Part shown: positions 5,757 to 62,719 of the stretch, in pieces
How the letters are laid out: every line of letters starts with the position of its first letter
Numbering within the stretch: the stretch's first letter is position 1
Source: an uncultured bacterium
Lineage (GTDB): Bacteria; Patescibacteriota; Minisyncoccia; UBA6257; 2-01-FULL-56-20
Direction of reading: 5' to 3'
Length of the DNA stretch: 64,000 nt
Assembly: GCA_963844965.1 (NCBI GenBank)
Contig: CAWJQC010000004.1
Span: 64,001 to 128,000, forward strand
Made by a program: the position numbers and the translations under genes
Notes under the pieces: generated by a model
What the model was told of the DNA's origin: nothing
Database searches by the model: none
Seen by the model: only the letters and a program-made list of their open reading frames with translations

Positions 5757-6168
5757 TTATTTACTAATGACCTTGCTTTTGAACGGCAGTTTATATCCGG
5801 CGAGGCGCAGGGCTTCCTTTGCCATATCCCCGTCCACGCCGTCTATTTCAAATATAACCCGACCGGGCTTCACGGGGAATACGTAGTGGTCAACGCTTCC
5901 TTTCCCGCCGCCCATGGTGGTTTCCGGCGGCCGCATGGTGACCGGCTTATCCGGGAAAACGCGTATCCAGAGCCGGCCGCTGCGCTTCAAGTGATTCGTA
6001 ATGGTTTTCCTCGCAGCTTCAATCTGCTTGGAATTCAACCACGACGGCTCAAGCGCCTTCAGACCGTACTCGCCGTAATTCAACCCCAAACCGCGCGTTT
6101 CCACCGGCGCGCTTGCGCGACCTGCCCTTTTGCCACTTCCTATGTTTTACTTTTTTGGGAATCAACAT
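5757..6168 (-). CDS. rplP: 50S ribosomal protein L16, interrupted by a frameshift near 6100-6125
   Basis: The canonical N-terminus [22 protein letters not shown] is encoded from ATG (rc of 6166-6168) in a different frame from the ORF-track body (V)[18 protein letters not shown]...[22 protein letters not shown]. Confidence 0.8.
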
Positions 6169-6253
6169 GGTTTTATAAATTCGAAACTTAAAAATCAAAA
6201 GGCAAAAGTGGGATTAAAAAGTTTTAAATTTTGACCTTTGATTTTGTTATTTG

Positions 6254-6937
6254 CTACTTTTTGTTTTCTGTTTTGTCTTTTTGGAATATCTCTCCTTTAT
6301 ATATCCAAACCTTGACTCCCACCGTTCCATACGTGGTGTAGGCGACGGCGTGGCCGTAATCTATATTGGCGCGGAGGGTGTGGAGCGGCAAAGAACCGCC
6401 CTGCGCCGCAAGCCACTCGCGCCTCGCAATCTCGTTGCCGTCAAGCCGGCCGGAAAGAAGCACTTTTGCGCCTTTCACTTCCTTGTTTTGTTTGACGCCT
6501 TCAAGATATTTTTTCATCGTCCTGCGGTAAGGCATGCGTTTTTCCAGATCCCAGGCGATCTGCTGCGCAACGTATTGTGCAGAAATTTCGGACCTTTTCA
6601 GTTCCTCAACGTTCACACTCAAGTTCCCGGTCAATTTCTTGACTCCCTTGAGCTTCCTTACTGCCGCCTCAATCGCCTTGTTCAGTTCTTCTATGCCTTT
6701 GCCGCCCCTGCCGATTATGAAACCCGGCCTTGCGGCTTTTATCCAAATCTTGATATTTCCGCCGGTGCGTTCTATCTCCACGGCAGCGATGCCCGCCTGC
6801 CCGATTTTATCCGTAATCACCCTTCTAACTGCTTCATCCTCTTCCAGAAATTTTGCGTAATTCTTGGAAAACCAGCGCACTGGCCAATTCTTGGTAACAC
6901 CAAGCCGATATGATAACGGATTTATTTTTTGTCCCAT
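6254..6937 (-). CDS. rpsC: 30S ribosomal protein S3
   Basis: 227 aa; MGQKINPLSYRLGVTKNW... KH domain GIAAVEIERTGG, S3. Confidence 0.9.
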   Translation of the reverse strand: MGQKINPLSYRLGVTKNWPVRWFSKNYAKFLEEDEAVRRVITDKIGQAGIAAVEIERTGGNIKIWIKAARPGFIIGRGGKGIEELNKAIEAAVRKLKGVKKLTGNLSVNVEELKRSEISAQYVAQQIAWDLEKRMPYRRTMKKYLEGVKQNKEVKGAKVLLSGRLDGNEIARREWLAAQGGSLPLHTLRANIDYGHAVAYTTYGTVGVKVWIYKGEIFQKDKTENKK

Positions 6938-6945
6938 GATTTTAT

Positions 6946-7461
6946 TTATTTGGCGAATCCAGCCTTTCTGCTGAAAATTCTCCTGAAGAAACCGGGTCTT
7001 TTCTTCGGCTCGGCGACTTCTTTTTTGGCCTTTTCAACTCTTTTCTTTTTCGCCGGTTTTTCCTCTCCCGGCGGCAACTTAACTTTTTTAGGAACAACTA
7101 TCTTGAACCGCGGCGAAGCCAGATCCGGTTTCTCCGCTAAAATCATAGTAACGTGGCTCATTTTTCTCTGTATCGGCGTGGCTGTGCCGCGCGCGCGGGG
7201 CAGATATCTTTTGAGCATGGGGCCCTGGTCAACGCGCACACTCTCAACGAGAAATCTTTCTTCGGCTAAGCGCTTATTGTTCTTGATATCGGCGACGGCG
7301 GAACGCAAAAGCTTCAAAAGCGGTACGGCGGCTCGGCGCCTTATGGACATAAGCTGCGCTTCCGCTTCGTGGATAGGCAGTCCTTTAAGCAGATCGGCAA
7401 TGGCGCGCACCTTGCGCGGAGTCATTCTAAGATAATTCAGTTTTACTGTTTGCTTATTCAT
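6946..7461 (-). CDS. rplV: 50S ribosomal protein L22 with Lys-rich C-terminal extension
   Basis: L22 core (RMTPRKVRAIADLLKG...RARGTATPIQRKMSHVTMIL) plus a ~50-aa KKVKLPPGEEKPAKKKRVEKAKK tail. Confidence 0.85.
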   Translation of the reverse strand: MNKQTVKLNYLRMTPRKVRAIADLLKGLPIHEAEAQLMSIRRRAAVPLLKLLRSAVADIKNNKRLAEERFLVESVRVDQGPMLKRYLPRARGTATPIQRKMSHVTMILAEKPDLASPRFKIVVPKKVKLPPGEEKPAKKKRVEKAKKEVAEPKKRPGFFRRIFSRKAGFAK

Positions 7462-18904: not shown

Positions 18905-19044
18905 TTTTCTCCTTTCAACGGCAAAATTTCAACGCAAGCCCATCAGCTACGAAGCATTATACGGAAATACTTCATAAAAGTCAAACAAATTGCCAAATTG
19001 CCCCGAGGGCGCAAGAGAACGCGACCAGGATCTCCGGCAAAAAA

Positions 19045-21149
19045 TTACCGTTTTTTGCCTTCGATAATCAACTGCGCAATGTTCTGCGGCACTGGCTCAT
19101 AATGGTCAAATTCCATCGTGAACGCTCCCCTGCCTTGCGTCATGGAACGCAACTCGGTCGCGTAGCCGAACATTTCCGCGAGCGGAACTTTGGCGTCAAT
19201 CACTTTCACGTTGGGCCGGTCGGAAATTTCCTCAATCCTGCCGCGCTTGGAGTTCAAGTTGCCGCTCACCTCGCCCAAAAATTCTATCGGGATGATAACC
19301 TGAAGCTTCATTATCGGCTCCAATATGACCGGCTTCGCGCGCTTCGCCGCTTCCTGCAGGGCGATGGAGCCAGCAATTTTGAAAGCCGCCTCCGACGAGT
19401 CAACTTCATGGAAAGAGCCGTCATAGAGCGAAACTTCAAGGTCGGTCATCGGGTAGTGGGCAACGACCCCCTTACTCAATGCTTCCACCACACCTTTTTC
19501 CACCGCCGGGATGAATTCGTTCGGAATGATCCCTCCCTGATATCGTCTATGAAAACAAATCCCTTGCCGCGCTCCAAGGACTTCACGCGCAGCCAGACAT
19601 GTCCGTATTGTCCGCGGCCGCCGGATTGCCTGATATATTTGCCTTCCGCCTCCGCTTCGCCCATAATCGTTTCTTTATAGGCAACCTGCGGCCGCCCCAC
19701 CGAACCCTCAACACCGAACTCCCGCTTCATCCTGTCAACAATAATTTCCAGGTGCAACTCGCCCATGCCAGAAATAATCGTCTCGCCAGTTTCCAGGTCG
19801 CCCGCCACGCGGAAAGTCGGGTCTTCTTCCGCCAAGCGGTGCAGGGCAATGCTCATTTTTTCCTGGTCGGCTTTCGTCTTCGGCTCAATGCGAATGCCGA
19901 TCACCGGCTCGGGGAATATGATCTTCTCAAGCACTATCGGCGCGTCGGGACTGCAAAGCGTGTCGCCGGTCGTCGTATTCTTCAAACCGACGATCGCCGC
20001 GATATCTCCGGCATGCACTTCCTCCATTTCTTCGCGGTGGTTGGCGTGCATCCGCACCACGCGGCCGACACGTTCCTGCTGGTCCTTCTTGGAATTCAAA
20101 ACGTACGTGCCGCGCTTCAAAACGCCGGAATAATTCCGGAAATAGGTTAAAGTGCCGACGTACGGGTCTGTCGCAACCTTGAAAGCCAGCGCCGAGAACG
20201 GCTCTTCGTCCTTGGGGTGCCGCACGATATCGGCGCCGCTCTTCGGGTCAATGCCCTTAACCGGAGGAAGGTCCGTCGGCGCGGGCAAATATTCCACAAC
20301 CGAGTCAAGCATAAATTGCACGCCTTTGTTTTTCAGGGCCGAACCGCAAAGCACCGGCACAATTTTGTTGGCAATAACGGCTTTGCGCAAAACGCGGCGC
20401 AAATCTTCAATGTCAAGCTCAGTACCATCCAAATACTTGGTCATCAAGGCATCGTCATTGTCCACAATGCGTTCCACAAGTTCATGCCGCGCCTTCTTCA
20501 CGTGCACTTTCATATTTTCCGGCATCGGAATTTCTGTAATCTTTTCGCCATGTTCACCCTCCGAGCCGTACGCCTTTTCGGTTAAGAGGTCTATCATTCC
20601 CACGAATTCACCCTCAAGGCCGATGTTCAACTGCAAAGGCAGTGCGTTCGGCGTGAGCCGTTCTTTGATTGACTGCAAACTTTTTTCAAAGCTCGCACCC
20701 AAGCGGTCAAGTTTGTTAATAAAGCAAATCCGCGGCACGTGGTACTCATCGGCATAGCGCCAGTTCGTTTCCGACTGCGGCTCAACACCTGCGACGCCAT
20801 CAAAGACGACAACCGCGCCGTCCAAAACGCGGAGCGAACGCTTCACCTCCACCGTAAAGTCAATGTGCCCCGGCGTGTCAATCAAATTTATCATATGCTC
20901 AAATTTTTTGTCGCCCTTGCGGTAAGTCGGAATCCAGAACGCCGTCGTTGCGGCGGAAGTAATCGTAATTCCCCTCTCACGTTCCTGCTCCATCCAATCC
21001 ATCACCGTGTCGCCCGTGTGCACCTCGCCGATTTTGTGACTGACGCCCGTATAAAAAAGCACCCGTTCGCTCACGGTGGTTTTGCCGGCATCTATATGGG
21101 CGATGATGCCGATGTTACGGACCTTCTCGACAGGATACATTCTAGGCAT
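19045..21149 (-). CDS. fusA: Elongation factor G, split by a 1-nt deletion in a G-run near 19531-19540
   Basis: ORF-track pieces 19476..21149 (AHIDAGKTT...[10 protein letters not shown]) and 19045..19503 ([18 protein letters not shown]...) are contiguous EF-G. The correct join is ...[20 protein letters not shown]... Confidence 0.9.
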
Positions 21150-23729: not shown

Positions 23730-23829
23730 ATCAACAATAATATCCGAAAACCGCGGTCTTTGCCAATTAAGAAAAAACAAATTAAAATGAGCATGTCGCC
23801 CTCGTGGTGAAACTTGCCCTCCCACCTTT

Positions 23830-23902
23830 GTCCCTGTAGCTCAACGGATAGAGCGTGTGGCTTCGAACCACAAGGTTGCAGGTTCAAATCCTGCCAGGGA
23901 CG
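23830..23902 (+). tRNA. tRNA-Arg (anticodon TCG)
   Basis: Hand-folded cloverleaf: acceptor GTCCCTG/CAGGGAC, D-arm GCTC-AACGGATA-GAGC, anticodon arm TGTGG-CTTCGAA-CCACA, T-arm GCAGG-TTCAAAT-CCTGC, discriminator G, no encoded CCA. It is flanked by the inverted repeat CCCACCTTTG / CAAAGGTGGG. Confidence 0.85.
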
Positions 23903-23924
23903 CAAAGGTGGGAGGGTGAAGATA

Positions 23925-23990
23925 TCATATGTGGCTTCGAACCACAGGTTCCAGGTTCGAGTCCTGGCGAGGGCACACACAACATTTCGT
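23925..23990 (+). other. Partial tRNA-Arg(TCG)-like fragment (anticodon arm plus T-arm, no 5' acceptor or D-arm)
   Basis: GTGGC-TTCGAAC-CACAG plus CCAGG-TTCGAGT-CCTGG plus CGAGGGCAC, with no complementary 5' acceptor strand upstream. Confidence 0.5.
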
Positions 23991-24072
23991 ATCGCGGCAT
24001 CGTGGGGGCCGACGCTCTAGCGCGACCCCGAGAGGCCTACCGATACGGAATATCGTCCTCCTTATTTCTCTA

Positions 24073-24324
24073 TTAAGAGCCGGCAAAAATACTTTTGATA
24101 AGGCTTGTAATGCCGCCTGCTATCAGCACGATCACAAAACCGACTGCCGCATACGTAAGGGTCTTCTTCCCTTTCGAAAATTTTTCAGGATCGCCAGCCG
24201 CCGTCATCATTTGAAACCCGCCGACAAGCACCATTATACTTGTGAGCGGCGCTGCAATATCGTAAAAAAGAAATCCCGCCACACTATTCGCGACGGACAC
24301 CAAGCTGCCCCCCCATTCGTACAA
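24073..24324 (-). CDS. Small two-TM membrane protein, TrbC/VirB2 pilin-like (tentative)
   Basis: 83 aa with two hydrophobic helices and a short charged loop; next to the serine recombinase. Confidence 0.3.
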   Translation of the reverse strand: MYEWGGSLVSVANSVAGFLFYDIAAPLTSIMVLVGGFQMMTAAGDPEKFSKGKKTLTYAAVGFVIVLIAGGITSLIKSIFAGS

Positions 24325-24491
24325 TTTGGATCGAACGGATTAAAAAGTTGGTTGGGAGGGCACGCGGCAAAAGCTAACTTCGCGACGGTTAAGGCGCTGA
24401 CTGTTATTAAAATCTTTGTTGTGCGGCGGATAATATGCATATGGATTATTATAGCATACGAGATAGCGTGGCAGAAGCCCATTTTGTTTAG

Positions 24492-25886
24492 CTATTTCTG
24501 CAAGCTCAGAATTTTATTCCTGAACGTCAACTTACTCTTGAAGCAAGATAGCAATTCGCGTTTCTCGACCGTGCTGCCCTTTTTGAGAAGATATTTTGCG
24601 TACGTTTTAAGGTCAATTTCTTTAGTGGCCGCTTTCGATCCTTCTCCCAAGACATCGTTCGCGAATTTGCGATATCGTTCCATCTCGTCTTCGAATTTCT
24701 TCTGCATCCCAATCTCACTGATATCCATCTCGTCAATGATAGCGAGAAGTTGAGCGATCAATTCCTCTTCGCGAATGTATCCGCACTTGCAATCCTTATC
24801 TTTCGAGCGTGAGCATCCATAGTACACGTACCGCGCCGTCGTTCCATCCTTGTGCGCCTTATATTTCTCGCACGCACTGATGCCCGATCCGCATAGGCCG
24901 CACGAGATCAGTTTCGTAAACGAAAATTCCTTTATCTCCGACCTGATGACAAAATCTCGGTGCAGCTGCTCCTGTACTTTATCGAACAGCTCCCGCGAAA
25001 TGATTGCTTCGTGCTTGCCGCTGTACCAGTTACCGCTCTTCAGTGGATACTCAAAGATGCCGCAGTAAAATGGATTTTTGAGGATGATATAAATATTGGA
25101 TAACGAAAGCACTTTCCCATTCTTTGTTCTGAATTTGATTTCCGACTTCAGCCAATGATAAAGCTTCCGGCCCGACCATTGTTCGTCGGCGACTTTCTGG
25201 AGCATTTGCTTGATGACGGGCGCTCGCAGGGGATCAATGATAACTTCACAAGGACGGTCGGTGCTCTTCTCGTTAAGATACCCTGTCGGTGCGATAGACG
25301 GACGCAAACCTTGTTCGCACCGCATCCGTAATCCGCGCTTCACGTTTTCCGATTTGTTATCATTCTCAAGTTTCGCTTGGCTGCACAAAATCATCAACAT
25401 GAATTTCTCGCTCGGCGAGTTCGTGAATTTCTGGCTGAAGGTTCTGATCTCGATAAGTAATTTTTGATCCATCAAGTCCACCAAGCCGCCAAGGTCGCCC
25501 GCGTTGCGGCTCAAGCGATCCGGCGCCCATGTAAGGATACCGTTGAATTCGCCGGAACGAATATCAATAAGCAACTCGTTAAAAATTTTTCGCTGGCCGA
25601 CAGCTTTTGCGGAATGGCTTTCCTTTCTAACTTCGGCGATCTCAAGGTTATCGCGCTCGGCGATTTTCAGCATCTCCTTTATCTGACTATCAATGGAAAG
25701 CACTTGCTGTTCCTCGCTCTCCGTACTTTTCCTCGCATAGAGGCAGTATTTTATTTTTATCGCTTCGGCCTTTGTCGCAGAAACGCCCGACTGATCCCAG
25801 CCCTTTGGTATATTTGTTATTTTCTCCATACCTAAGGGATGCCGCAACGGCGGAAGGAGTCCAGAGCATCCTTGTCGGTAACTCAA
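24492..25886 (-). mobile_element. Large serine recombinase (resolvase catalytic domain, recombinase domain, zinc ribbon)
   Basis: YCLYARKSTESEEQQVLSIDSQ catalytic-Ser motif, large-recombinase middle domain, C-terminal Cys cluster CGLCGSG...YGCSRSKDKDCKCGY. About 590 bp from tRNA-Arg. Confidence 0.8.
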
Positions 25887-26951
25887 AACTCGATATCAGG
25901 CGACGAAGGGGCAAAGAAGGCAAGCAGAGTGATTTCCCCAGCCACCCTCTTTAAGACCATTTATAAACGAGCTATAATAATTCTAATGTTCAGTACCAAT
26001 GCGCGACGGGTAATGTGTGTCGTTGCAGGTTTGATTTTGACTTCGCTCGCTTGGATCGGATGCGCGAATTATTTCAACTGGTACGCCGACACAATCGGTC
26101 CCGTGGCCTGGTTTGGCACCCTGTTCCTATTTGCCGCAGCAGGAGTCGGCGCCGGTCTGCTCTTCGAAAAATCGACCAGGGCTCATTATCAGTCTGCAAT
26201 GACGGCAAATCCCCAACTTAAGGAACGAATGGAAACTACTCTCGGAAGGCGCCTCAAGTTTGGCTACGTGCTTGCCGGGCTTTATGTCGCCTATAGGCTT
26301 TTCGGATATTATCTGTTTTTTGTTCTCGGCTTCTCTTTATCTCCAGCGGCCCATCTTCAACTGATTCTTTCGGCGGTCGTTGAGGCGGTTGTCGCCTTAG
26401 TGTGTTTGTTGCTTTATTGGGAGCGCGGAGAAGATGCCAGTACGGCGAATATAAAAAAGCATTTGCTTGTCTATGTTATTTTCTTCTTCGTTCTCGCAGT
26501 GGTTGACGGTGTCGCACTGCTTGTCTTGAAGCCCGCTTCGGCGGTAGTTCAAACACCCGCAACTCTCGAATCCGCGCTCGAAGCATTTTCCGCCGAGGAA
26601 TTTTCCGGGGCAGCAGCAAAAGGGGCGCAAGCGCTACAAGTAAAAGATATGGTCGGGATAGCTTCGGCGCTCCAGAAGATCAATGCTCATTTTAACCAAT
26701 CATTAACCAGCGCGGATCTTTATGACATGCGGTACACCATTAATTGGGGCTTGAATGAAGCAATTGCATATTACCAATTCGAGGCCGACGATCAATCCAT
26801 TTACGCTCTTCAGCTTACCGAAAATCTTGCGACCAGCAATATTGCCGAGAGTTATTATTCGTTTCCGGCAGGTAGCACCTCCGCTCTAACCGGACAGAGG
26901 TATCTCTTCGTGGCAAACGGATTCAAACGCGGCCGAAACTTTGTTCCTTGA
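25839..26951 (+). CDS. Polytopic membrane protein, hypothetical (likely true start near 25989 MFSTNARRV...)
   Basis: Multiple TM helices; it may continue by frameshift into 27131..27526. Confidence 0.4.
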   Translation: MPQRRKESRASLSVTQNSISGDEGAKKASRVISPATLFKTIYKRAIIILMFSTNARRVMCVVAGLILTSLAWIGCANYFNWYADTIGPVAWFGTLFLFAAAGVGAGLLFEKSTRAHYQSAMTANPQLKERMETTLGRRLKFGYVLAGLYVAYRLFGYYLFFVLGFSLSPAAHLQLILSAVVEAVVALVCLLLYWERGEDASTANIKKHLLVYVIFFFVLAVVDGVALLVLKPASAVVQTPATLESALEAFSAEEFSGAAAKGAQALQVKDMVGIASALQKINAHFNQSLTSADLYDMRYTINWGLNEAIAYYQFEADDQSIYALQLTENLATSNIAESYYSFPAGSTSALTGQRYLFVANGFKRGRNFVP

Positions 26952-27130
26952 TACTGCAGGTGCTTATCTCAACCTACCTATGCAATCTCCGATTATGAAC
27001 GAAGACCTTTATTATCCTTTAACGGCATCTGCTCCTTCGTGGACAGTGTCCGTCCTCTTTACGAGCACTACGGAGGAGGGACAACAGCAAGTTCACGCTC
27101 TATAATACCTTTGACGCGAATACCGAGCGG

Positions 27131-27526
27131 GTGACGACGAGTACTTACGTTCCCTCCGGAAACTATTTGCCCTTGTCACCACAATCGCCATCCGTGTCGA
27201 TGAACGTTGCTCCGCCTCCCTCAAATTCCTCCCTGAAAATAATTTCTCCTGCCAACGGACAGAAATTGAAGCAGGGGTCAACATACACGATTAGCTGGCA
27301 GTCGTCTGGTGATTTCAATTTTGTCGTCGGGAATATCGTCGCTCCCGTTCCGGGCGAAGGGGGTGTAGGAATATTCCAAGCCCCCGCGACTTCAAGCCGC
27401 TATAGCTGGACCGTGCCGACCGGCTTCCCACCTGGGATGTATAAACTGGGGCTTGCGGGCAGCGATCAAGATTTTGTGAATCATAATTTTGCCTCGTCCA
27501 GTGTTTCAATCTACATCATTCCGTAG
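27131..27526 (+). CDS. Hypothetical extracellular beta-rich domain protein (possibly the C-terminal part of the preceding gene)
   Basis: 131 aa, Ig-like-looking composition (ISPANGQKLKQGSTYTISWQSSGDFNFVV). Confidence 0.3.
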   Translation: MTTSTYVPSGNYLPLSPQSPSVSMNVAPPPSNSSLKIISPANGQKLKQGSTYTISWQSSGDFNFVVGNIVAPVPGEGGVGIFQAPATSSRYSWTVPTGFPPGMYKLGLAGSDQDFVNHNFASSSVSIYIIP

Positions 27527-27599
27527 TAAAACTTATTTAAGATGAGACGCGGCCTTGGGACACCCTTTTAGTGCCTCATTTGTCTCATTTGCATAAAAA

Positions 27600-28140
27600 A
27601 GCCTTATTTTATGGGCATCGATTTTTCGGAATGAGACACTGCTTTGTATAAATCGGACACGTCCAGAATGGCATTTCTGTGTCCGATTTGTCCGATTTGC
27701 CTCCAAAATGTTACACACCACAAAGTGCAAAAGTTGTGTAACATTTGTAACATTTTGAGGAAAAGCGGGGGGTTGGAACATGGGAATGGGACACGAAAAA
27801 TCGACCTCTTGTGTCCCATTTGTTCCATTTTGTAGAAATGAGCCCTGCTGCGTTACGTTTGCCGCGTTACATTCCGAACGCTCAGAAATCTTTGATTTAT
27901 CTACCTAACAGGACAGCTCCCCAAAAAAGTGCCGCCCTCTCAACTTTTCACATCGCGTTACATTTGTTACATGTTACATTTGATCCCTCCGAAAACCGCG
28001 ACCGTGAGCCTTCCAAGGGAAATTTGGGGTCGTCCTCAAAAACCCTTATACTGATTGCACAGGGAAAGTCCGCATCCGCGAGGGGGCACAACAAAACTAT
28101 ATCTTTTTAGTTACCGCACGGTTGTCGTCGAGACGCGTGA
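27600..28140. repeat. AT-rich non-coding region with iteron-like direct repeats (GT[A/T]ACATTTG) and hairpins
   Basis: Motifs tgtaacatttgtaacatttt, gtgtccgatttgtccgatttg, gtcccatttgttccattttg, cgttacatttgttacatgttacatttg; palindrome TGTTACACACC...GTTGTGTAACA. Confidence 0.5.
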
Positions 28141-28141
28141 A

Positions 28142-28178
28142 AAACAAAAAAGGAGCTTGCAGAGCTCCTCTATCTAAC
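28142..28178 (-). terminator. Rho-independent terminator (GGAGCTCTGCAAGCTCC plus T-run on the minus strand)
   Basis: Perfect hairpin followed by TTTTTTGTTTTT just downstream of the gene ending at 28189. Confidence 0.6.
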
Positions 28179-28188
28179 TCAACCTAAC

Positions 28189-28908
28189 TCAACGGGATGC
28201 GGCGGAAACATGGGACAGCACGTCCGCAATGGCGTTCACGAGAACTCTTAATCCGTCTCTCCGGTAGAAAATTTCCTCACCGTCTGCCGGTCCGAAGCGA
28301 TCAATGTGGCGGTGAGATTTTTTCCTTATGAAACGACTGTTCGAAAGAGCGTGTAAGTTTACCCTTATGTTCTCAATCATTTTCTCGTGATAAGGGTTCT
28401 CCCTGCCATGCCATTGCTCACAAAGGGCAATCTCGCCTTCGGCGGTCGTAAAAAACAACGACCGAAGGAAGTAATTAAAGTGACGCTCAACGGCAGTCTC
28501 AACCAATCTTTGCAACTCCGGCCCGCTTTTCGCGCTTCCCAAGACCGGTATCGCCGAGATATCGTTACCATACTTCTTTTTGGCCAAGTGGTCCCAGGCA
28601 TAACCAAGAGCGATGAGCCAACGTTTGCCGTGGACGGTGGCAAGGAACACGTCGCCGTACTTCATATATAACCTTTCCGAATTATTGCCGTTGACGGCAT
28701 GGTCGTCAACGATCGCGTAGACAGATGACGGAATGGGCAACTCGATTTTCCTACGGGGACGCAATCTATAATCATCCCAAAGTCCGTGAAATACCCCGTA
28801 GGTAAGTTCCTCAGGCGTAATCAACCGCCTGAACGGATGGACAATAGAACGAAGAGCACCGTGCTTTCCTTCCAGCACTTCCTTCAGGCGTTTTCTAAAA
28901 ATTTTCAT
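28189..28908 (-). CDS. Hypothetical protein (start trimmed to MKIFRKRLKE)
   Basis: ORF 28189..29013 with many antisense ORFs; no recognisable motif. Confidence 0.4.
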   Translation of the reverse strand: MKIFRKRLKEVLEGKHGALRSIVHPFRRLITPEELTYGVFHGLWDDYRLRPRRKIELPIPSSVYAIVDDHAVNGNNSERLYMKYGDVFLATVHGKRWLIALGYAWDHLAKKKYGNDISAIPVLGSAKSGPELQRLVETAVERHFNYFLRSLFFTTAEGEIALCEQWHGRENPYHEKMIENIRVNLHALSNSRFIRKKSHRHIDRFGPADGEEIFYRRDGLRVLVNAIADVLSHVSAASR

Positions 28909-29236
28909 CCGACCCCCAATCAAAAGATTTTCACTCAAACAACTGCAAGCAGTATAACGAAATTTTTTGAATTTGGCAAATTTGATATTTTTCGCCGCAG
29001 AAGCCAACGCCACTTCTCGGCCATAAAAATATCCGCAAACGGCAACCGTTTGCGGATTTCAACTTATCGCGACGCACTCTCAACGCACCTCACGCACAAA
29101 ACACGCACCTGCCGCCAAGGAATCTCGCCCTCAGCGGCGAGAAGAAAATCTCCGGCCAATATAAAGCCCATGGATTCAAGAATTCGCGCGCGGCATTTGC
29201 AACAATTCACTTTCACGCCGACCTTCCTTAGAATTT

Positions 29237-30256
29237 TCAATCGCGCCTCTTCAAAACAGGCGGCTGCTCCTCGCCCTTATTACCTTTATTCTCGCCGCCC
29301 TGCTGTGTCTGGTCGGTCGGCTCGCGCTTCTTAAGCGTCGGCTTTCCTTCGGTTACTTTCCTTCTGCTCGTCACAATTTGCAGCCGATCTTTCACGTCAT
29401 CAAACTCGGATGTAGACACGAGATACTGGTCCTTTTTCGGAAGAATTTCCTTAATCTCCTTCTCTATTTTTATAATCCTGTCACCAGTTGGCGGATGGTC
29501 GGCAAAAACGTTTGGCACGCTTCCGGGTATTCGCCTTTCTTCTTCAATAACCTTGGAAAACATACCTACGTAGGACTCCGGGTCGTAGCCCGCCTTATAC
29601 ATGTACTGCAATCCCAGATAGTCCGCCTCGGCCTCGTCGTTGCGGCTGAATTTTAAAAACGCAATAGGTATGCCAAAGTTCATGGCCTCCATAGTCGCAA
29701 TGTAAACAGGATAAGACATGGGTACGAAGATAAGAGGAATTGTGGCGTATTGGAGGAGCGTGGCTTTTGTCATCTGCGACGCCCAATGCCGGCACGCAAC
29801 GTGCGCAATCTCGTGCGCCATCACTCCGGCAACCTGACTTTCTCCATCGGCAACAAGAAGCAGGCCAGAATTAATATACAAGAACCCGCCAGGGAGAGCG
29901 AAGGCGTTGATTCCGGGCGCATCTATAACTTTCACCGTAAGAGGAACTTTCAGGTCCGAATTCCGCGCAATGTTCTGAGCGACGCGGTTGACATACTCGC
30001 CCACCACAGGGTCGGTCAAAAGTTTCGCCGATTTCTCAACTTCGGTGGAGTATTGTTTCCCGATGGCAATCTCTTTTTCAATGGAAATTATTGACTTGTG
30101 CGCGACCTTGCGGTTGCCGATTTCTTCGGGGTTGTCTTTGCTCTTCTGTCCGTCCGCCGAAGCGCCATAAGCCCTGGGAGGGCACGCCATAATGGCCAAA
30201 AGGATAGCAAGAATAATTACAAGAATCAGGTATCGTTTCTTGACCGTACCGCTCAT
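29237..30256 (-). CDS. Secreted peptidase M48 family (Zn metalloprotease, BepA/YfgC-like)
   Basis: Signal peptide; MAHEIAHVACRH HExxH motif; EAEADYLGLQYM downstream glutamate motif. Confidence 0.7.
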   Translation of the reverse strand: MSGTVKKRYLILVIILAILLAIMACPPRAYGASADGQKSKDNPEEIGNRKVAHKSIISIEKEIAIGKQYSTEVEKSAKLLTDPVVGEYVNRVAQNIARNSDLKVPLTVKVIDAPGINAFALPGGFLYINSGLLLVADGESQVAGVMAHEIAHVACRHWASQMTKATLLQYATIPLIFVPMSYPVYIATMEAMNFGIPIAFLKFSRNDEAEADYLGLQYMYKAGYDPESYVGMFSKVIEEERRIPGSVPNVFADHPPTGDRIIKIEKEIKEILPKKDQYLVSTSEFDDVKDRLQIVTSRRKVTEGKPTLKKREPTDQTQQGGENKGNKGEEQPPVLKRRD

Positions 30257-30561: not shown

Positions 30562-31231
30562 CTGGAAAAATTAAGGATAAATTTGGTGCGGGTTAGACGC
30601 CGCAGCTCTCCTCTTACAACCGCGTAGCGAGGCGAGGATAAAAATCGCCAATTTTTATTTTCGCCGAGCGAGCGGGTGGCGAAACAGGTTTTCGCAGGAA
30701 AAGGTTCCAGGTTCAAGTCCCTGCTTGCCAGCAGGCAGGCAGGTGGGCGGACACAGAATCGAGGATCTCCGGCAGCTCACCTCTTTTTTATTGACAACAC
30801 ACACGTTATTTTTTAATCTAAACAGTAGCGTCTGTTAAAAATTAAAAATCGGGAGCGGCAATGTATAGTCTGTTTGGAAGATTCGAGCGGATAGGCGAAG
30901 CGAAATATTCCGCCGAGGAAATCTGTCTTTTCCGGTTAATCGACCTTCTATTACATCGCGGATGGAGATTCCTGGGATGCCTGTGGAACGGCAAAAAATA
31001 TAAGATAAAAATAAAAAATCTCCGCACCGGCAAAAAACGCTCTTTCAAATCAGGACGCCCATATTGGCTCTCAAGCGATGCCGACGGAAATTTATTCTAA
31101 CCCCACCGAATGAACAGGTGGGTTTTTGTTTTGGGGTAAATTTGGTATAATATGTGCGCGATGTGCTTGGCTCATATTGGGAAAACGTGGCGCCGGACAC
31201 CGAACAAATTCCGTTCTATGTATAAATCATT

Positions 31232-33913
31232 ATGAGTGGGATAAAAATAAATCTTTCTCTCAGCGAAATCCCAGGCATCGGCCCGCGTTTTCTGGAACGG
31301 CTGGGAAAACTCGGCATAAAAACCGTCCGTGATCTCATTTATCATTTTCCGGCCCGCTACGAGGATTTCTCCCAGATATACAAAATTTCCGACGTTGAGC
31401 CGGGGGAACAGGTAACAATACGTGGCGTTGTTGAAGACACCAAACTGCGGCGGACTTGGAGAAAACACATGACAATCGCCGAAGCCCTGATCCGCGACGA
31501 TTCCGGAACGATACGCGCCATCTGGTTCAACCAACCATATGTTTTGAACACTCTGCGGGTCGGGCGCACGGCGAATTTCGCAGGCAAAATATCCATATCG
31601 GACGAGGACGAAATTTATTTGAGCCACCCGGCTTATGAAATCGTCGGCAGTCGGGAGTCGGGAACGGAGAAGCAAGAAACAAAACATACAGCGCGGCTCG
31701 TCCCCATTTATCCCGAAACGCGCGGCCTCACATCCAAGGGGTTGAGATATCTGATCCAGCCAATTCTGAAAAACAGCGAACAGCTGGAGGAATGGCTGCC
31801 GCCGGAAGTTCTGCGCGAAAATAATTTTCCCGAAATAAACCTTGCGCTCAGATCCATACACTTCCCCGAAAAAACCGAGGATGCTCTTGTCGCGAAAAAA
31901 CGCTTCACTTTTGAAAACCTGTTCCTGCTGCAACTCGCCAATCTTGAACAAAAATTGAAACTCGCGCGCGAAAAAGCGCCAGTGATCAAAACCGACATAG
32001 AACACCTGAAAAAAATGATCTCGGAACTGCCATACGAACTCACGTTTTCGCAAAAGAAATCATTGTGGGAAATCATCCAGGACCTCGCCAAAAAACAGCC
32101 GATGAACCGCCTGCTCCAGGGCGACGTGGGCTCCGGCAAGACGGTTGTCGCGGCGCTCGCCGCGGTAATTACCGCGGAAAACGGGCTGCAGACCGCGTTT
32201 ATGGCGCCAACCGAGGTTCTCGCGAGACAGCATTTTGAAACATTGAAAAAATTATTCGCCGGAATTCCCTCGATCCATCAACCCGTAGTTGGGCTTCTCA
32301 CGTCAAGCGAAGCAAAAATCCTCTACGCGACAGACCTTGAATCAAAAATCAAAAAACCGGAGTTGCAGGAAAAAATAAAAAACGGCGAGGTAAAAATAGC
32401 CATCGGCACGCACGCTTTGATACAAAAAGACGTGGCGTTCGGCAATCTTGCCTTTATCATCATTGACGAACAGCATAGATTCGGCGTCTCACAACGAGCT
32501 GCGCTCGTTCGCGGACAGACGCAGAATGATAATACGCGGACAGACGCTGAACAACTACTATACGAAAAAACGACGTTTGAGATAAGAAAAAGTCTGTTTG
32601 AGGTGAGAAAACAACTGGGCCTTGGTCATAAAGAAGTGGTGTATCAGAAAGCATTGGAGGAGGAGTTCAAGAAATCCGGTGTAATATTTGAGAAAGAAAA
32701 GAAAATTCCTGTCGTTTATAACAAGAAAAAGATTGGCGTTTATCAACCGGATTTTGTCATAGATAATGAAGTAATTTTGGAACTTAAGGCTCTTCCCTTT
32801 ATCGGCGGCATCGAAAAAAAACAGCTGTGGAATTATTTGAGGGGTTCGGATTACAAACTCGCGCTTATGGCAAACTTTGGACCGGAAAGATTATCCATAG
32901 AGCGGGTAGTATACGATATTGCGCGGAGTCGGCGGCTGTCAGCGTCCGGTCAGCAACTGTCCGCGCCTATCCCCCACCTCCTCTCAATGTCCGCCACGCC
33001 AATCCCACGCACGCTCATGCTCACCGTCTTCGGCGATTTGGATATATCGCTCATCACCGAACTTCCCGCCGGCAGAAAAAATATCGTAACAAAAATAATC
33101 CCCCCACGGGGCAGGAGCGAAGCCTATGAATTCATCCGCGGCGAAGTGAGGGCCAGCCGGCAGGTTTTTGTCATCTGCCCCCGCATTGACAAACCGCAGA
33201 CAGGCGCAGACCACACGCAGACAAACGCAGACAAGACACAGACAGACGCAGACAATTTTCAGCGGCTGTCTGCGTCAAGTCAGCGACTGTCCGCGTTAAG
33301 TCCACGTAAGTCCGCGTTAGTGTGGGAAGTAAGATCCGTGAAAGAAGAATTTGAAAAATTATCCAAGAAAATTTTTCCGGATTTGCGCGTCGCCATGCTC
33401 CACGGCCAGCTCAAGCCAAAAGAAAAAGCGGGTATCATGAAGGACTTCCGCAACTACAAAATAGATATTCTCGTTTCAACTTCCGTCGTGGAAGTTGGCG
33501 TGGACGTGCCGAACGCAACAATAATGATGATTGAAGGCGCCGATCGCTTCGGGCTGGCTCAGATCTACCAATTCCGCGGACGCGTGGGGCGCGGCGAACA
33601 CCAATCCTATTGCTTCCTGTTCACGGATTCGTCCGCCAAAACTACGCGCGAGCGGCTGCAGGCCGTCCTTGAAGCCAAGAACGGCTTTGAGCTCGCCGAG
33701 AAGGACCTGAAGATCCGCGGTCCCGGCGAATTCCTCGGCACGGCGCAGACCGGCTTTCCCGACACGGCGATGAGCGGCCTCATGAACCCGGAGCTCGTGA
33801 AAGCAAGCCGCGAAGCGGCGGCAAAAATCGTCCAAAAAGATCCGCTTTTCAAAAATTATCCGCTCCTGAAAACCAAATTAAACGAGTTCCGGAAGGAAAT
33901 CCACTTGGAGTAG
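31232..33913 (+). CDS. recG: ATP-dependent DNA helicase RecG carrying an inserted GxxExxY/PD-(D/E)XK nuclease-like domain (about 32500-32990) and a second short repeat-encoded insert (33180-33310)
   Basis: Wedge/OB N-terminus; helicase motifs GDVGSGKT, DEQHRFG, QxxGRxGR (YQFRGRVGRGEHQSY). Internal segment GHKEVVYQKALEEEF...YQPDFVIDNEVILELKA matches GxxExxY plus D-x(n)-ExK. Confidence 0.85.
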   Translation: MSGIKINLSLSEIPGIGPRFLERLGKLGIKTVRDLIYHFPARYEDFSQIYKISDVEPGEQVTIRGVVEDTKLRRTWRKHMTIAEALIRDDSGTIRAIWFNQPYVLNTLRVGRTANFAGKISISDEDEIYLSHPAYEIVGSRESGTEKQETKHTARLVPIYPETRGLTSKGLRYLIQPILKNSEQLEEWLPPEVLRENNFPEINLALRSIHFPEKTEDALVAKKRFTFENLFLLQLANLEQKLKLAREKAPVIKTDIEHLKKMISELPYELTFSQKKSLWEIIQDLAKKQPMNRLLQGDVGSGKTVVAALAAVITAENGLQTAFMAPTEVLARQHFETLKKLFAGIPSIHQPVVGLLTSSEAKILYATDLESKIKKPELQEKIKNGEVKIAIGTHALIQKDVAFGNLAFIIIDEQHRFGVSQRAALVRGQTQNDNTRTDAEQLLYEKTTFEIRKSLFEVRKQLGLGHKEVVYQKALEEEFKKSGVIFEKEKKIPVVYNKKKIGVYQPDFVIDNEVILELKALPFIGGIEKKQLWNYLRGSDYKLALMANFGPERLSIERVVYDIARSRRLSASGQQLSAPIPHLLSMSATPIPRTLMLTVFGDLDISLITELPAGRKNIVTKIIPPRGRSEAYEFIRGEVRASRQVFVICPRIDKPQTGADHTQTNADKTQTDADNFQRLSASSQRLSALSPRKSALVWEVRSVKEEFEKLSKKIFPDLRVAMLHGQLKPKEKAGIMKDFRNYKIDILVSTSVVEVGVDVPNATIMMIEGADRFGLAQIYQFRGRVGRGEHQSYCFLFTDSSAKTTRERLQAVLEAKNGFELAEKDLKIRGPGEFLGTAQTGFPDTAMSGLMNPELVKASREAAAKIVQKDPLFKNYPLLKTKLNEFRKEIHLE

Positions 33914-60014: not shown

Positions 60015-60085
60015 CGGCGGTCAAAAACGGAGTATCGTATAATGGTAGTGCCTGCCGGCAGGCAGGCACATGCATGGCCCAGCAC

Positions 60086-60154
60086 TAAAATTTTCGGGCT
60101 GTAGTATAGCGGCAGTACGCACCCTTGGGGTGGGTGTAGACCGGGTTCGACTCC
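60086..60154 (+). tRNA. tRNA-Pro (anticodon GGG)
   Basis: Acceptor GGGCTGT/GCAGCCC, anticodon arm CACCC-TTGGGGT-GGGTG, T-arm CCGGG-TTCGACT-CCCGG (one nucleotide short, possibly an indel), discriminator G. Its last two nucleotides overlap the start of a 159-bp inverted repeat. Confidence 0.7.
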
Positions 60155-60311
60155 CGGCAGCCCGACATAACGGAACTTGCATCAACTTTTTCAAAATCAA
60201 CGCGCTCGCTTCGCTCGCTGTCTTTATGCACGAGGGGCAAATGGAGAAGCAAATCCGTAACTACTTTCCATTCGTCTTTCCAATCCCAAAAAATTTCCCT
60301 GTCCCGCAGGC

Positions 60312-61686: not shown

Positions 61687-61759
61687 ATCAATATTATAGC
61701 GTCATCACGCCATATAGCGCAATAGTGCCCTGCCTGATACGATATTCATAAGAATACTC

Positions 61760-61963
61760 ATGGATATAGCGGCTAAATTCGGACAGAAGATAAAGAGGTT
61801 GCGATTGAGCGGAAAGATGTCTCAAGGTGGCCTCGCCAAGAAGCTCGGCGTTGGTGCTTCCTATGTCAGCAAGATAGAGCGTGGCATACAAAACGTATCT
61901 CTTAAGGGCGTGGAGAAATTAGCCGATGCGTTGGGCGTACCACCCGACCGCCTCTTGAAATAA
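61760..61963 (+). CDS. XRE-family helix-turn-helix transcriptional regulator
   Basis: 67 aa; IKRLRLSGKMSQGGLAKKLGVGASYVSKIERGIQNVSLKGVEKLADALGV, a classic HTH_3 domain. Confidence 0.7.
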   Translation: MDIAAKFGQKIKRLRLSGKMSQGGLAKKLGVGASYVSKIERGIQNVSLKGVEKLADALGVPPDRLLK

Positions 61964-62719
61964 CTGGCCTCGTCCGAAAGTTTCGGATAGATAAAATCCG
62001 CAAGGGAAAAATCGGGACAAAGATTCTTTCTTGTCGCAATTCACTTGCGACGAACCGCCGCCTGCGGGACAGGGAAATTTTTTGGGATTGGAAAGACGAA
62101 TGGAAAGTAGTTACGGATTTGCTTCTCCATTTGCCCCTCGTGCATAAAGACAGCGAGCGAAGCGAGCGCGTTGATTTTGAAAAAGTTGATGCAAGTTCCG
62201 TTATGTCGCAGTTGCTGAACGCTGTACGAACCTATTTTATCGAAAATCCGAGGGATTAGCCACCGGATTTACCCCTTCATTCACCCCTTCATTCGGGTAT
62301 GCTCGGAATGAAGGGGTAGCAAGTCCTGATTGCCCTGAAAACGCTGGGCTTTTTGACTCTCGCCGGACAAAACCAGAAGTCCTACTTCACTCCGGTTTGC
62401 CTAGTCAATCACCCCGTCAATCACGATTGACTACCCTGACGGCCATTCCGCCCTTACGAGACCTCGCTTTTCTCAAAAATCCTGACCCCCGACAATACCC
62501 CTAAACGGGTCTGTGCTCAGCCCCTCAGCCGCTCACTGTTGTTCGGGCTTCGGGGCTTCGCGTATGGCGCGCCCAAATTCCTCCCCCAACCCCTCCTTTG
62601 GGGCGCGCCGAGGGCGGTTGCGGCAACCCTTGGAACAGGGTATGGTTGAGATATCCACGCATAGGCGATGAAGCTCGCCGCAACCGCCCTTAGGGGCTGA
62701 TAGCTTCTATCTCAAAAAG

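What the first reader, a model, noticed from the sequence alone, without database searches (positions are those of the whole stretch)
27600..28140. Iteron-like direct repeats in a 550-bp AT-rich non-coding region inside the putative island
The region carries at least six copies of GT(A/T)ACATTTG-type motifs in tandem pairs (tgtaacatttgtaacatttt, cgttacatttgttacatgttacatttg), other tandem 8-9-mers (gtccgatttgtccgatttg, gtcccatttgttccatttt) and a 10-bp-arm palindrome. Such iterons typically mark plasmid or phage replication origins or partition sites, which would fit an integrated replicon remnant downstream of the serine recombinase.
Basis: seen in the sequence. Interest (0 to 1): 0.5.

Follow-up and report, generated by a model that had tools for sequence, protein, structure and literature searches.

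The report
Three-arm repeat modules of recombinase island
The repeats are real: five small DNA modules, each holding one inverted and two tandem copies of its own 9-base word, lie near one end of a 4-kb mobile island carried by a serine recombinase. The same module design recurs in over a hundred ultra-small (CPR/Patescibacteria) genomes and looks like protein docking or control sites, not a replication origin.

Summary
Window 27540-27983 holds five modules on one strand. Each is AAT-xyz-ACAC, then 16-22 nt, then GTGT-x'y'z'-ATTT plus a second tandem copy 9 bp on. The central triplet differs between modules (CTC, CCG, AAC, CCC, TAC) but is shared by all arms of a module.

A pattern written from these modules hits at least 119 loci in the genome collection, nearly all CPR/Patescibacteria and mostly the GAG/CTC type. 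In 19 of 20 loci that also carry a homologue of the window's large serine recombinase, that gene lies on the single-arm side and reads away from the module.

A syntenic relative (L207) lacks the whole 4.6-kb stretch after tRNA-Arg. The modules are therefore island cargo. They end about 80-105 bp inside the mapped right junction.

No Rep or Par gene, DnaA box, skew change, or plasmid, phage or Rfam match was found.

Best reading: cis-acting protein-binding control modules of the island. The binder is not identified. An att-like docking role and a hairpin role remain open. The origin/partition reading is not supported. The module family appears undescribed.

The parts
27540..27593 (+). Module A (CTC/GAG type, imperfect): inverted arm AGATGAGACG 27540-27549, tandem pair CCTCATTT-GTCTCATTT 27573-27590
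   Evidence: (D1, D7). The word matches the canonical CPR-wide module AAATGAGACAAATGAGACAC...GTGTCTCATT.
27630..27639 (+). Extra inverted arm AATGAGACAC, complementary to 27581-27589
   Evidence: I12: 9 nt, 100%, 40 nt apart. The same extra arm follows the tandem pair in many related loci.
27650..27699 (+). Module B (CCG type): AAATCGGACAC, 18 nt, GTGTCCGATTT-GTCCGATTTG
   Evidence: (I8, I11).
27704..27757 (+). Module C (AAC type): CAAAATGTTACACA, 17 nt, TGTGTAACATTT-GTAACATTTTG
   Evidence: (I4, I6). The AAC type recurs with matching arms in L007, L021, L025, L033, L056 and L063.
27774..27833 (+). Module D (CCC/TCC type): TGGAACAtggGAATGGGACAC, 16 nt, GTGTCCCATTT-GTTCCATTTTG. The left side also carries two arms.
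   Evidence: I10; DNA fold -15.1 kcal/mol, z -4.55.
27846..27873 (+). Module E, left part: two 14-nt direct repeats TGCTGCGTTACGTT / TGCCGCGTTACATT
   Evidence: D8. Conserved at 73-77% in L015 and L033.
27956..27983 (+). Module E, right part (TAC type): CGTTACATTT-GTTACAT-GTTACATTTG, three direct copies
   Evidence: (D2, D3). Conserved in L015 and L033.
27996..28010 (+). 'GACC piece' CCGCGACCGTGAGCC, the counterpart of GCCCCGACCGAGAGGC that follows the module in most related loci
   Evidence: The hairpin test was inconclusive. A second copy lies at the left island end, 24022-24037.
28040..28089 (+). Island right end: AAACCCTTATACTG..., then a degenerate tRNA 3'-half look-alike GGGAAAGTCCGCATCCGCGAGGGGGCAC. 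This is the inferred attR (P half-site).
   Evidence: It resembles the tRNA-Arg 3' end GGCGAGGGCAC at 23966-23976. The flank after it resembles the flank of a GGGGGCAC fragment in the empty site L207. The same logic holds in L042, L068/L124 and L118.
23917..23976 (+). 3' part of the outer tRNA-Arg(TCG). Its 3' end is the left island junction (inferred attL).
   Evidence: 95% identical to the intact tRNA-Arg of L207. Similarity stops at 23976.
24492..25886 (-). Large serine recombinase (464 aa): Resolvase + Recombinase + Zn_ribbon_recom domains
   Evidence: (phrog_95 integrase, 7e-65). Homologues of 50-69% identity lie next to modules in other loci.
23977..28089 (.). Inferred island (about 4.1 kb): pilin-like ORF, recombinase, 370-aa membrane ORF, 131-aa Ig-like ORF, modules, GACC unit
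   Evidence: Absent from the syntenic locus L207. The 274-aa orphan at 28189-29013 is also absent there and may be a separate insertion.

Best explanation
The region is an array of five cis-acting 'three-arm' DNA modules. They belong to a small island that a large serine recombinase inserted at the 3' end of a tRNA-Arg gene. The modules end about 80-105 bp inside the island's right junction.

Each module presents one 9-10-bp word three times: one inverted copy, a 16-22-nt spacer that starts A-rich, then two head-to-tail copies 9 bp apart. The modules are variants of a motif family found across CPR/Patescibacteria. The canonical member is AATGAGACAC-N17-21-GTGTCTCATTTGTCTCATTT.

Most likely mechanism (inferred, not shown):
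- The arms are recognition sites in double-stranded DNA for a sequence-specific binding protein. A pair of protomers would sit on the inverted arms and a further protomer on the tandem copy.
- The central triplet sets which member of a binder family is recognised.
- Binding gates transcription at the island end, and possibly the attR/attP complex.
- In canonical loci the tandem pair occupies the -35/spacer position of an outward-facing -10 element that has no good -35. This suggests a factor-dependent promoter reading across the junction.
- A row of different modules would let one island answer to several binders supplied in trans by phages or other elements.

The best candidate binder is a Zn-ribbon plus winged-HTH protein family encoded directly beside such modules elsewhere. 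The window encodes none.
For: Shown:
1. The three-arm layout and triplet concordance are non-random. In the window, 3 pattern matches against 0.00 expected.
2. Across all loci, 19 of 50 non-CTC/CTT modules have an identical triplet in the inverted arm (permutation mean 3.0, maximum 9 of 2000). 42 of 50 are within one mismatch.
3. The family is widespread and lineage-restricted: at least 119 loci, nearly all CPR. 62 of 124 hits have all three triplets equal.
4. Triplet types form a small recurring alphabet: CTC 90, CCC 12, CTT 10, AAC 9, CCA 4, GCC 4. This is expected for cognate binders, not for free stems.
5. GAG/AAG differences between arms occur about equally in both directions (my count from the list). 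There is thus no G-U strand bias, which argues for duplex DNA rather than an RNA hairpin.
6. The modules are island-borne. The empty site L207 lacks them. The recombinase lies on the single-arm side and reads away in 19 of 20 loci. tRNA genes lie beyond the recombinase.
7. -10-like hexamers peak 5-7 nt after the tandem pair: 32 of 109 loci, against about 2-3 per other offset.
8. The Zn-ribbon/wHTH gene starts 20-30 nt after the single arm in L008 and L030. It follows a module closely in L127, L130, L132, L133, L135, L139 and L165. In phage contig L003 it lies 133-149 nt downstream, after a 41-aa ORF.
9. A second recombinase island in the window ends in other '2 direct + 1 inverted' modules next to an XRE regulator gene.
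Against: - No binder is identified for the window. There is no Zn-ribbon/wHTH homologue in 64 kb.
- That family sits beside only a minority of modules: 9 of 119 genome loci.
- No sigma-70-like promoter is called inside 27527-28188 on either strand.
- The -10 peak holds for only about 30% of related loci.
- Arm-to-arm spacing varies from 15 to 22 nt, which is loose for a rigid operator.
- About 80% of loci show a module and GACC unit with no recombinase in the 8-kb locus, some beside housekeeping genes. The unit may therefore have a life of its own.
- Five specificities in one array would need five binders, and none has been seen.
Confidence: 0.45

Rival explanations
1. The modules are recombination-related sites for large serine recombinases. 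They could be secondary att-like docking sites that capture or shuffle DNA, or accessory sites that shape the attP/attR synapse and set directionality.
For: - The recombinase is the only protein shared by the islands and keeps a fixed position and orientation relative to the module.
- Module geometry (10-bp inverted arms around 16-22 bp, 38-50 bp in all) resembles serine-integrase att sites. The attP I reconstructed by eye has CCGCGA-N23-TCGCGG.
- The order of module types differs among relatives, as if cassettes were shuffled: window CTC-CCG-AAC-CCC-TAC; L033 CTC-CCC-GCC-AAC-TAC-CCG; L015 CTC-CCG-like-GCC-TAA-TAC.
- The second recombinase island in the window has its own set of 2+1 modules.
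Against: - The island junction maps 80-105 bp beyond the last module, at the tRNA-like 3' end, not inside a module.
- Known large serine recombinases need only about 40-50 bp att sites and no accessory sites (established knowledge).
- The module arms do not resemble the arms of the inferred att core.
- Phage contig L003 carries a module with no recombinase homologue in the 12.5 kb held for that locus.
- Differences between arm triplets are spread evenly over the three arms, with no sign of hybrid sites.
Confidence: 0.2
2. The modules act as nucleic-acid hairpins: an array of RNA stem-loops (a processed non-coding RNA or decoy array), or single-stranded DNA hairpins recognised by shape, in the manner of integron attC or REP elements. 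The second tandem copy would offer an alternative pairing register.
For: - Arms differ between modules but stay complementary within each, which is the classic sign of pairing.
- Both pairing registers are perfect in modules B and C (I6/I4 and I8/I11).
- Folding z-scores run from -2.2 to -4.6.
- The spacer length is variable, as loops usually are.
Against: - No G-U strand bias among imperfect modules (my count).
- The triplet alphabet is small and shared across genomes rather than free.
- The tandem copy is conserved although it is unpaired in any one register.
- No Rfam family matches at gathering or relaxed thresholds, in the window or in 17 + 3 related loci.
- No HUH, Y1 or integron-type enzyme was found nearby.
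- Perfect Watson-Crick arms give no information on strand.
Confidence: 0.12
3. One reading: iterons of a plasmid or phage replication origin, or a partition site, left by an integrated replicon.
For: - Clustered short direct repeats lie in a non-coding, mildly AT-richer stretch of a mobile island.
- Two neighbouring ORFs (274 aa and 370 aa) have no recognisable family, so an unknown initiator cannot be excluded.
Against: - The repeats are 9 bp long, in five sequence types, always as 1 inverted + 2 tandem, and not phased 17-22-bp iterons.
- No Rep or Par family hit.
- No DnaA box and no marked AT-rich stretch.
- No skew change.
- No match to 72,556 plasmids or 50,697 phage records.
- In related islands the only shared gene is the recombinase.
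- The 274-aa orphan has no homologue in 5.8 billion proteins apart from its own sequence.
Confidence: 0.07
4. The repeats are non-functional debris: slippage duplications and quasi-palindrome correction in decaying island DNA.
For: - Modules A and E are imperfect.
- Templated correction can make short inverted repeats perfect (established knowledge).
- Many related loci look like remnants with no recombinase.
Against: - The same 20-nt tandem word and its inverted copy are conserved exactly across distant CPR phyla.
- The layout, strand and position relative to the GACC unit are invariant.
- Variant types recur in several genomes with all arms matching.
Confidence: 0.03

Closest known systems
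Iterons of theta-replicating plasmids and lambdoid phage origins (for example lambda ori/O protein, pSC101 RepA)
   Same: Clustered short repeats in non-coding DNA of a mobile element. Individual lambda iterons are themselves small dyads.
   Different: Iterons are 17-22 bp, near-identical, helically phased, and lie next to their initiator gene and an AT-rich unwinding element. Here the word is 9 bp, comes in five types, and has a fixed 1 inverted + 2 tandem layout. No initiator, DnaA box or AT-rich block was found.
Ogr/Delta-dependent late promoters of phage P2 and satellite P4 (a Zn-finger activator binding a TGT-N12-ACA dyad upstream of promoters with a poor -35; recalled from the literature)
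   Same: - A dyad with TGT/ACA-type ends.
- A -10 element without a recognisable -35 in canonical loci.
- A small Zn-binding candidate factor encoded by phage-like elements.
- The idea that an island without the factor responds to one supplied in trans.
   Different: The dyad is inverted (ACAC...GTGT) with 16-22 nt between the arms. An extra tandem copy is present. The site overlaps the -35/spacer rather than lying at -55. The candidate factor carries a winged-HTH and is unrelated by sequence. No activation has been shown.
Excisionase/RDF binding sites in the P arm next to attR (lambda Xis X1-X1.5-X2; mycobacteriophage L5 gp36; recalled from the literature)
   Same: Tandem direct repeats about 100 bp inside the attR junction. 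The candidate binder gives a weak HTH_17 (excisionase-type) signal.
   Different: Those systems use tyrosine integrases. Known RDFs of large serine integrases act by protein-protein contact, not by binding DNA. An inverted arm and several specificities are unknown for Xis sites.
Accessory sites of small serine resolvases (Tn3/gamma-delta res sites I-III; Sin site II with direct repeats; recalled from the literature)
   Same: A serine recombinase context. Several copies of a 9-12-bp word occur in inverted and direct orientation. By recollection, the gamma-delta consensus TGTCYNNTA resembles TGTCTCATT.
   Different: The enzyme here is a large serine recombinase. The modules lie 80 bp or more from the junction. 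The TGT end faces inward, not outward. The subsites of one res share a single word, whereas these modules differ.
Integron attC sites and REP/BIME elements (hairpins recognised by shape in single-stranded DNA)
   Same: Arrays of imperfectly related inverted repeats whose arms co-vary.
   Different: No integron integrase or RAYT was found. There are no cassettes between the sites. The tandem third arm and the small shared triplet alphabet have no counterpart in those elements.

Membership tests
Iteron-type replication origin | Three or more near-identical direct repeats of about 17-22 bp, spaced in phase with the DNA helix | tested here: not met
   The units are 9 bp, occur in pairs, come in five sequence types, and each pair has an inverted partner.
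Iteron-type replication origin | An initiator (Rep) gene adjacent to the repeats | tested here: not met
   No Rep family in Pfam, PHROGs, PADLOC or NCBIfam for the island ORFs. Two orphans remain uncharacterised.
Iteron-type replication origin | An AT-rich unwinding element and/or DnaA boxes beside the repeats | tested here: not met
   No TTATCCACA-like site (up to 1 mismatch) in 26-30 kb. The lowest-G+C 40-mer is 27.5%. The region is 45.5% G+C against 50.4% overall.
Iteron-type replication origin | Sequence similarity to a known plasmid or phage origin | tested here: not met
   No blastn match (words of 11) in PLSDB plasmids or INPHARED phages.
Partition site (parS/parC) | A ParA/ParB or ParM/ParR operon next to arrays of one repeated binding word | tested here: not met
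   No Par family hit in the neighbours. The words differ between modules.
Large-serine-recombinase att site | An imperfect inverted repeat of about 40-50 bp around a central crossover | tested here: inconclusive
   The geometry fits: 10-bp arms and a 16-22-bp spacer. Geometry alone is not specific.
Large-serine-recombinase att site | The site lies exactly at the island/host junction | tested here: not met
   Comparison with the empty site L207 puts the junctions at 23976/23977 and about 28089. The last module ends at 27983.
Resolvase res-type accessory sites | Several subsites sharing one binding word, adjacent to the crossover site of a small serine resolvase | tested here: not met
   The enzyme has the Recombinase and Zn_ribbon_recom domains of the large class. 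The words differ between modules, and the modules lie 80 bp or more from the junction.
Factor-dependent promoter/operator | A -10 element at a fixed distance from the binding sites, and a cognate regulator gene | tested here: inconclusive
   A -10 peak lies 5-7 nt after the tandem pair in 32 of 109 related loci. No promoter is called inside the window region. A candidate regulator sits beside modules elsewhere but not in the window.
Described structured RNA (Rfam 15) | A match to a covariance model | tested here: not met
   Nothing at gathering score. Only chance-level hits at E up to 10. Nothing at the homologous position in 17 + 3 related loci.
CPR three-arm module (family defined here) | AAATnnnACAAATnnnACAC-N14-22-GTGTnnnATT, followed on the tandem side by the GACC piece and a tRNA-3'-like end | tested here: met
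   Modules B, C and D match exactly. The GACC piece and tRNA-like end follow at 27996-28089 and align with 40 related loci.

The most novel reading that the evidence does not exclude
The triplet-coded modules form a 'bar-code' sensing array. Each module would be the cognate site of a different phage- or element-encoded Zn-ribbon/winged-HTH factor. A tiny recombinase island in a CPR bacterium could then detect several distinct invaders or helpers and switch on transcription or excision, in the manner of a satellite and its helper phage. Alternatively, the modules are orthogonal docking sites that let serine recombinases assemble and shuffle DNA cassettes, an integron-like system built on serine rather than tyrosine recombinases.
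Probability: 0.15. Interest if true: 0.8.

Novelty: new variant of a known kind. Interest (0 to 1): 0.55.

Why it matters
CPR/Patescibacteria make up a large part of bacterial diversity, yet almost nothing is known about their mobile elements or gene control.

This work defines three things:
- A compact, widely spread family of tRNA-targeting serine-recombinase islands.
- A sharply conserved 50-bp DNA module that travels with them. It is identical across distant CPR phyla.
- Variant modules in which a 3-bp core changes in concert in all three arms.

If the core sets binder specificity, the modules give a natural set of orthogonal protein-DNA pairs and a handle on regulation in organisms that are barely cultivable. 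If the modules are recombinase docking sites, they point to a new way of building gene arrays.

In either case the finding yields testable reagents: defined sites, a candidate binder family, and a mapped attL, attR and empty site for a serine integrase.

Tried and rejected
- Rfam on the window, the region and 20 related loci: nothing relevant.
- Literature search for the module sequence and for CPR serine-recombinase islands: no paper holds the sequence, and nothing on point was found. The paper on CPR tRNA group I introns is unrelated.
- Homologues of the 274-aa neighbour: none apart from its own sequence. Its AlphaFold model was unusable at pLDDT 36.7, so no fold search was run.
- I first took the roughly 100-nt stretch after the modules for a small RNA gene. 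RNAalifold gave no consensus structure. The GACC 'hairpin' is not clearly better than a shuffled control, 25% against 17% with a stem of 4 or more. Its 3' part is better explained as a tRNA-3'-half-like att arm.
- I considered that the modules themselves are the att sites. The empty-site comparison argues against this.
- I looked for a protein shared by the islands besides the recombinase. There is none.
- I tested the Zn-ribbon/wHTH family as a universal partner. It is adjacent in only a minority of loci, and 80 metagenome homologues mostly lack modules. One GGG-type site sits beside a homologue with an altered helix (RRWINEG against RKLVRQG). That is a single case, so it carries no weight.
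- The search on the M48 peptidase was meant to find syntenic relatives. It returned only hits of about 70% identity, some labelled Terriglobia. Synteny was instead obtained through the S7 protein cluster.
- A viral-contig scan with the recombinase gave only another integrated copy.
Full report
**What is in the sequence.**
The stretch 27527-28188 lies between two convergent ORFs, 27131-27526(+) and 28189-29013(-). On the + strand there are five modules. Each consists of an inverted arm AAT-xyz-ACAC, a spacer of 16-22 nt, a direct arm GTGT-x'y'z'-ATTT, and a second direct copy exactly 9 bp further on.
- Module A: 27540-27593, core CTC, imperfect, with an extra inverted arm at 27630-27639.
- Module B: 27650-27699, core CCG.
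- Module C: 27704-27757, core AAC.
- Module D: 27774-27833, core CCC/TCC, with two arms on the left side as well.
- Module E: 27846-27873 plus 27956-27983, core TAC, with a long spacer.

The flanks of the word (GT...ATTT, ACAC/GTGT) are constant. The central triplet differs between modules but is the same in all arms of a module.

**Is it more than chance?**
- The full pattern AAATNNNACAAATNNNACAC-N14-22-GTGTNNNATT matches three times in the window, all here, against 0.00 in 100 shuffles.
- The tandem-pair pattern matches four times against 0.10.
- Seven of the eleven GTGTNNNATT words of the window lie in 27630-27820.
- Two of the three perfect tandem 9-mers in 64 kb are here.
- The region is only mildly AT-richer than the window: 45.5% against 50.4% G+C, the 9th percentile.

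**The modules belong to a large family.**
Nearly all are labelled Patescibacteria/CPR: Saccharibacteria, Parcubacteria groups, Uhrbacteria, Peregrinibacteria, Roizmanbacteria and others. Half of the hits (62 of 124) have all three triplets identical. The dominant form is AAATGAGACAAATGAGACAC...GTGTCTCATT, the same word as module A.

Most loci have one module. About 15 have arrays of two to five different modules, always on one strand. Over all loci, non-canonical modules keep the triplet in the inverted arm far more often than permutation allows: 19 of 50 identical against a mean of 3.0 and a maximum of 9, and 42 of 50 within one mismatch. The types form a small recurring alphabet (CTC, CCC, CTT, AAC, CCA, GCC, TGC).

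Four viral contigs also match. One of them (L003) has a perfect GAG module just upstream of a ribosome-binding site and a small operon. No Rfam family matches, in the window or at the homologous place in 20 loci. No paper in the library holds the sequence.

**What always accompanies a module.**
In the window's orientation, the tandem pair is followed in most loci by three elements:
- a short A-rich stretch, often TAGCTTAAAAT or TGCTAGAAT;
- a conserved 'GACC piece', GCCCCGACCGAGAGGC;
- about 50 nt later, CCCTTA(A/T) and a degenerate look-alike of a tRNA T-arm plus acceptor 3' strand, often followed by a terminator.

The window has all of these at 27996-28089. -10-like hexamers peak 5-7 nt after the tandem pair (32 of 109 loci, against 2-3 at other offsets). 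This places the tandem pair at the -35/spacer position of an outward-facing promoter-like element with no recognisable -35.

On the other, single-arm side, 20 genome loci carry a homologue (50-69% identity) or a fragment of the window's large serine recombinase. In 19 of them it lies on that side and reads away from the module, 56 nt to 4.5 kb off (L124 is consistent through its second pattern hit). A tRNA gene (Ser, Lys, Gly, His, Arg, Asp) lies just beyond the recombinase's 3' end, in the same orientation as the tRNA-like end next to the module. The recombinase is the only protein these islands share.

**The module is island cargo, not the junction.**
The S7 protein cluster led to a contig from a relative (L207, GCA_040960625.1). 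It is collinear with the window through EF-G, S7/S12, the M50 protease, tRNA-Arg, the M48 peptidase, tRNA-Lys and RecG, at 71-95% nucleotide identity. Between the tRNA-Arg 3' end and the M48 gene it has 671 nt, where the window has 5261 nt. The recombinase, the two cargo ORFs, the modules, the GACC unit and the 274-aa orphan are all missing, and no GTnnnATTT tandem is present there.

Similarity stops at 23976 (...GGCGAGGGCAC). The island's right end repeats this as ...CGCGAGGGGGCAC at 28078-28089, and its flank resembles the flank of a GGGGGCAC fragment in L207. The same attL/attR resemblance, extending into the trailer, is seen in other islands. Examples are L042 (tRNA-Ser) and the tRNA-Lys ends of L068/L124 compared with the tRNA-like end of L118. 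The last module therefore ends about 105 bp inside attR, or about 80 bp from the start of the tRNA-like arm. A second GACC piece lies just inside attL at 24022-24037, as in L046 and L060.

**Origin or partition site?**
Nothing supports this reading.
- The words are 9 bp, heterogeneous, and arranged as 1 inverted + 2 tandem copies.
- There is no Rep or Par family in the island or beside it.
- There is no DnaA box and no marked AT-rich block.
- The skew does not change.
- There is no match in plasmid or phage collections.

Two neighbouring ORFs are orphans, so an unknown initiator cannot be formally excluded. However, such ORFs are not conserved in related islands.

**How it most likely works.**
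Three readings fit the anatomy.

(a) Duplex DNA sites for sequence-specific proteins.
- For: the small shared alphabet of triplets.
- For: the conservation of the third, unpaired arm.
- For: GAG/AAG differences between arms occur equally in both directions, so there is no G-U bias (my count).
- For: the fixed position of the tandem pair relative to a -10 element.
- For: a second recombinase island in the same window ends in other '2 direct + 1 inverted' modules next to an XRE regulator.
- Candidate binder: a Zn-ribbon plus winged-HTH family with CxxC...CxxC and a weak HTH_17 signal. Its gene starts 20-30 nt after the single arm in L008 and L030. It follows a module closely in seven of the closest metagenome homologues. 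In phage contig L003 it lies 133-149 nt downstream, after a 41-aa ORF.
- Against: the window encodes no such protein, and most modules elsewhere have none nearby.

(b) Recombinase-related sites. The geometry is att-like, the recombinase is the constant partner, and the order of modules is shuffled among relatives. However, the junction is elsewhere, and known large serine recombinases need no accessory sites.

(c) Hairpins in RNA or single-stranded DNA. The arms co-vary and both registers pair perfectly. However, there is no strand bias, no RNA family and no hairpin-handling enzyme.

I rank (a) first at 0.45, (b) at 0.20, (c) at 0.12, origin/partition at 0.07 and neutral debris at 0.03. What is shown: the anatomy, the family, the island membership and the position. 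What is inferred: that a protein binds, which protein it is, and that binding controls transcription or excision.

**Open points.**
- About 80% of related loci show a module and GACC unit with no recombinase, and often no tRNA, in the 8-kb locus. Some lie beside housekeeping genes such as YceG or LexA, yet their modules are perfect. They may be ends of larger islands, remnants, trans-mobilised mini-elements or an autonomous unit. I could not decide.
- The GACC 'hairpin' is not established.
- Whether five different modules mean five binders is unknown.

**Comparison and novelty.**
The nearest known things are iterons, Xis/RDF sites in the P arm, resolvase res subsites, Ogr/Delta-type activator sites of P2/P4, and attC/REP hairpins. 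The modules share one or two traits with each and fail a defining feature of each that could be tested (see the membership table).

The module family, its triplet-coded variants, and its link to tRNA-targeting serine-recombinase islands of CPR bacteria appear undescribed in Rfam and in the searchable literature. I file it as a new variant of a known kind: cis-acting repeat sites of an integrative element. It is of moderate interest as it stands. It would be of high interest if the triplet proves to be a specificity code.

Noticed in passing
window 23800-23976: A tRNA inside a tRNA. In L207 the tRNA-Arg(TCG) gene is intact. In the window it is split in its D-loop (5' part 23800-23814, remainder 23917-23976). 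The insert is a complete second tRNA-Arg(TCG) at 23830-23903, held between perfectly complementary 14-nt arms CCCTCCCACCTTTG / CAAAGGTGGGAGGG (I3, 44, 75-77).
   Followed up: partly
window 60085-62500: A second serine-recombinase island: a 533-aa recombinase at 60085-61686(-) beside tRNA-Pro, and an XRE-type HTH ORF at 61760-61963(+). A non-coding stretch follows with other '2 direct + 1 inverted' modules at 62270-62318 (ACCCCTTCATTC x2 + GAATGAAGGGGT) and 62402-62433 (GTCAATCAC x2 + GATTGAC), then GACCCCCGAC near 62485.
   Followed up: partly
window 24073-24324 (-): An 83-aa ORF between the tRNA and the recombinase resembles the Mbov_0395 family of pilin-like conjugal transfer proteins (E 1.3e-8, 34.4 bits, just under the cut-off of 40).
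   Followed up: no
window 29237-30256 (-): The best database relatives of the M48 peptidase are about 70% identical. The few that carry a name are labelled Terriglobia/Acidobacteria. Yet the gene is syntenic in the relative L207. This suggests either an old transfer or mislabelled bins.
   Followed up: partly
window 30702-30720: A tRNA T-arm fragment AGGTTCCAGGTTCAAGTCC lies 140 nt after tRNA-Lys. It is 95% identical to the T-arm of the outer tRNA-Arg at 23946-23964 (D1). It could be the scar of another integration.
   Followed up: no
window 19026-21149 (-): The EF-G reading frame listed is 557 aa, whereas the syntenic gene in L207 encodes 701 aa and nucleotide similarity runs on to 19026. This points to a frameshift or an assembly error near 19476.
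   Followed up: no
window 31232-33913 (+): The RecG-like helicase (893 aa) seems, by eye, to carry an inserted GxxExxY / PD-(D/E)XK-like segment and low-complexity tracts in mid-protein. L207 has a free-standing PDDEXK_3 gene between S7 and EF-G.
   Followed up: no
L015 about 6010-7050; also L049, L069, L121: A 345-aa reverse transcriptase with a DGR-like LGNLTSQ motif (judged by eye) ends 2-106 nt before the single arm of the module in four loci.
   Followed up: no
L125 positions 7304-7100 (read on the - strand): Just inside the tRNA-Asp junction of another island there are arm-like words in tandem: GACACATTT, then GACCGATTT-GCCCCATTT with a period of 9. Module-like words can therefore also occur at the left end of an island.
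   Followed up: no
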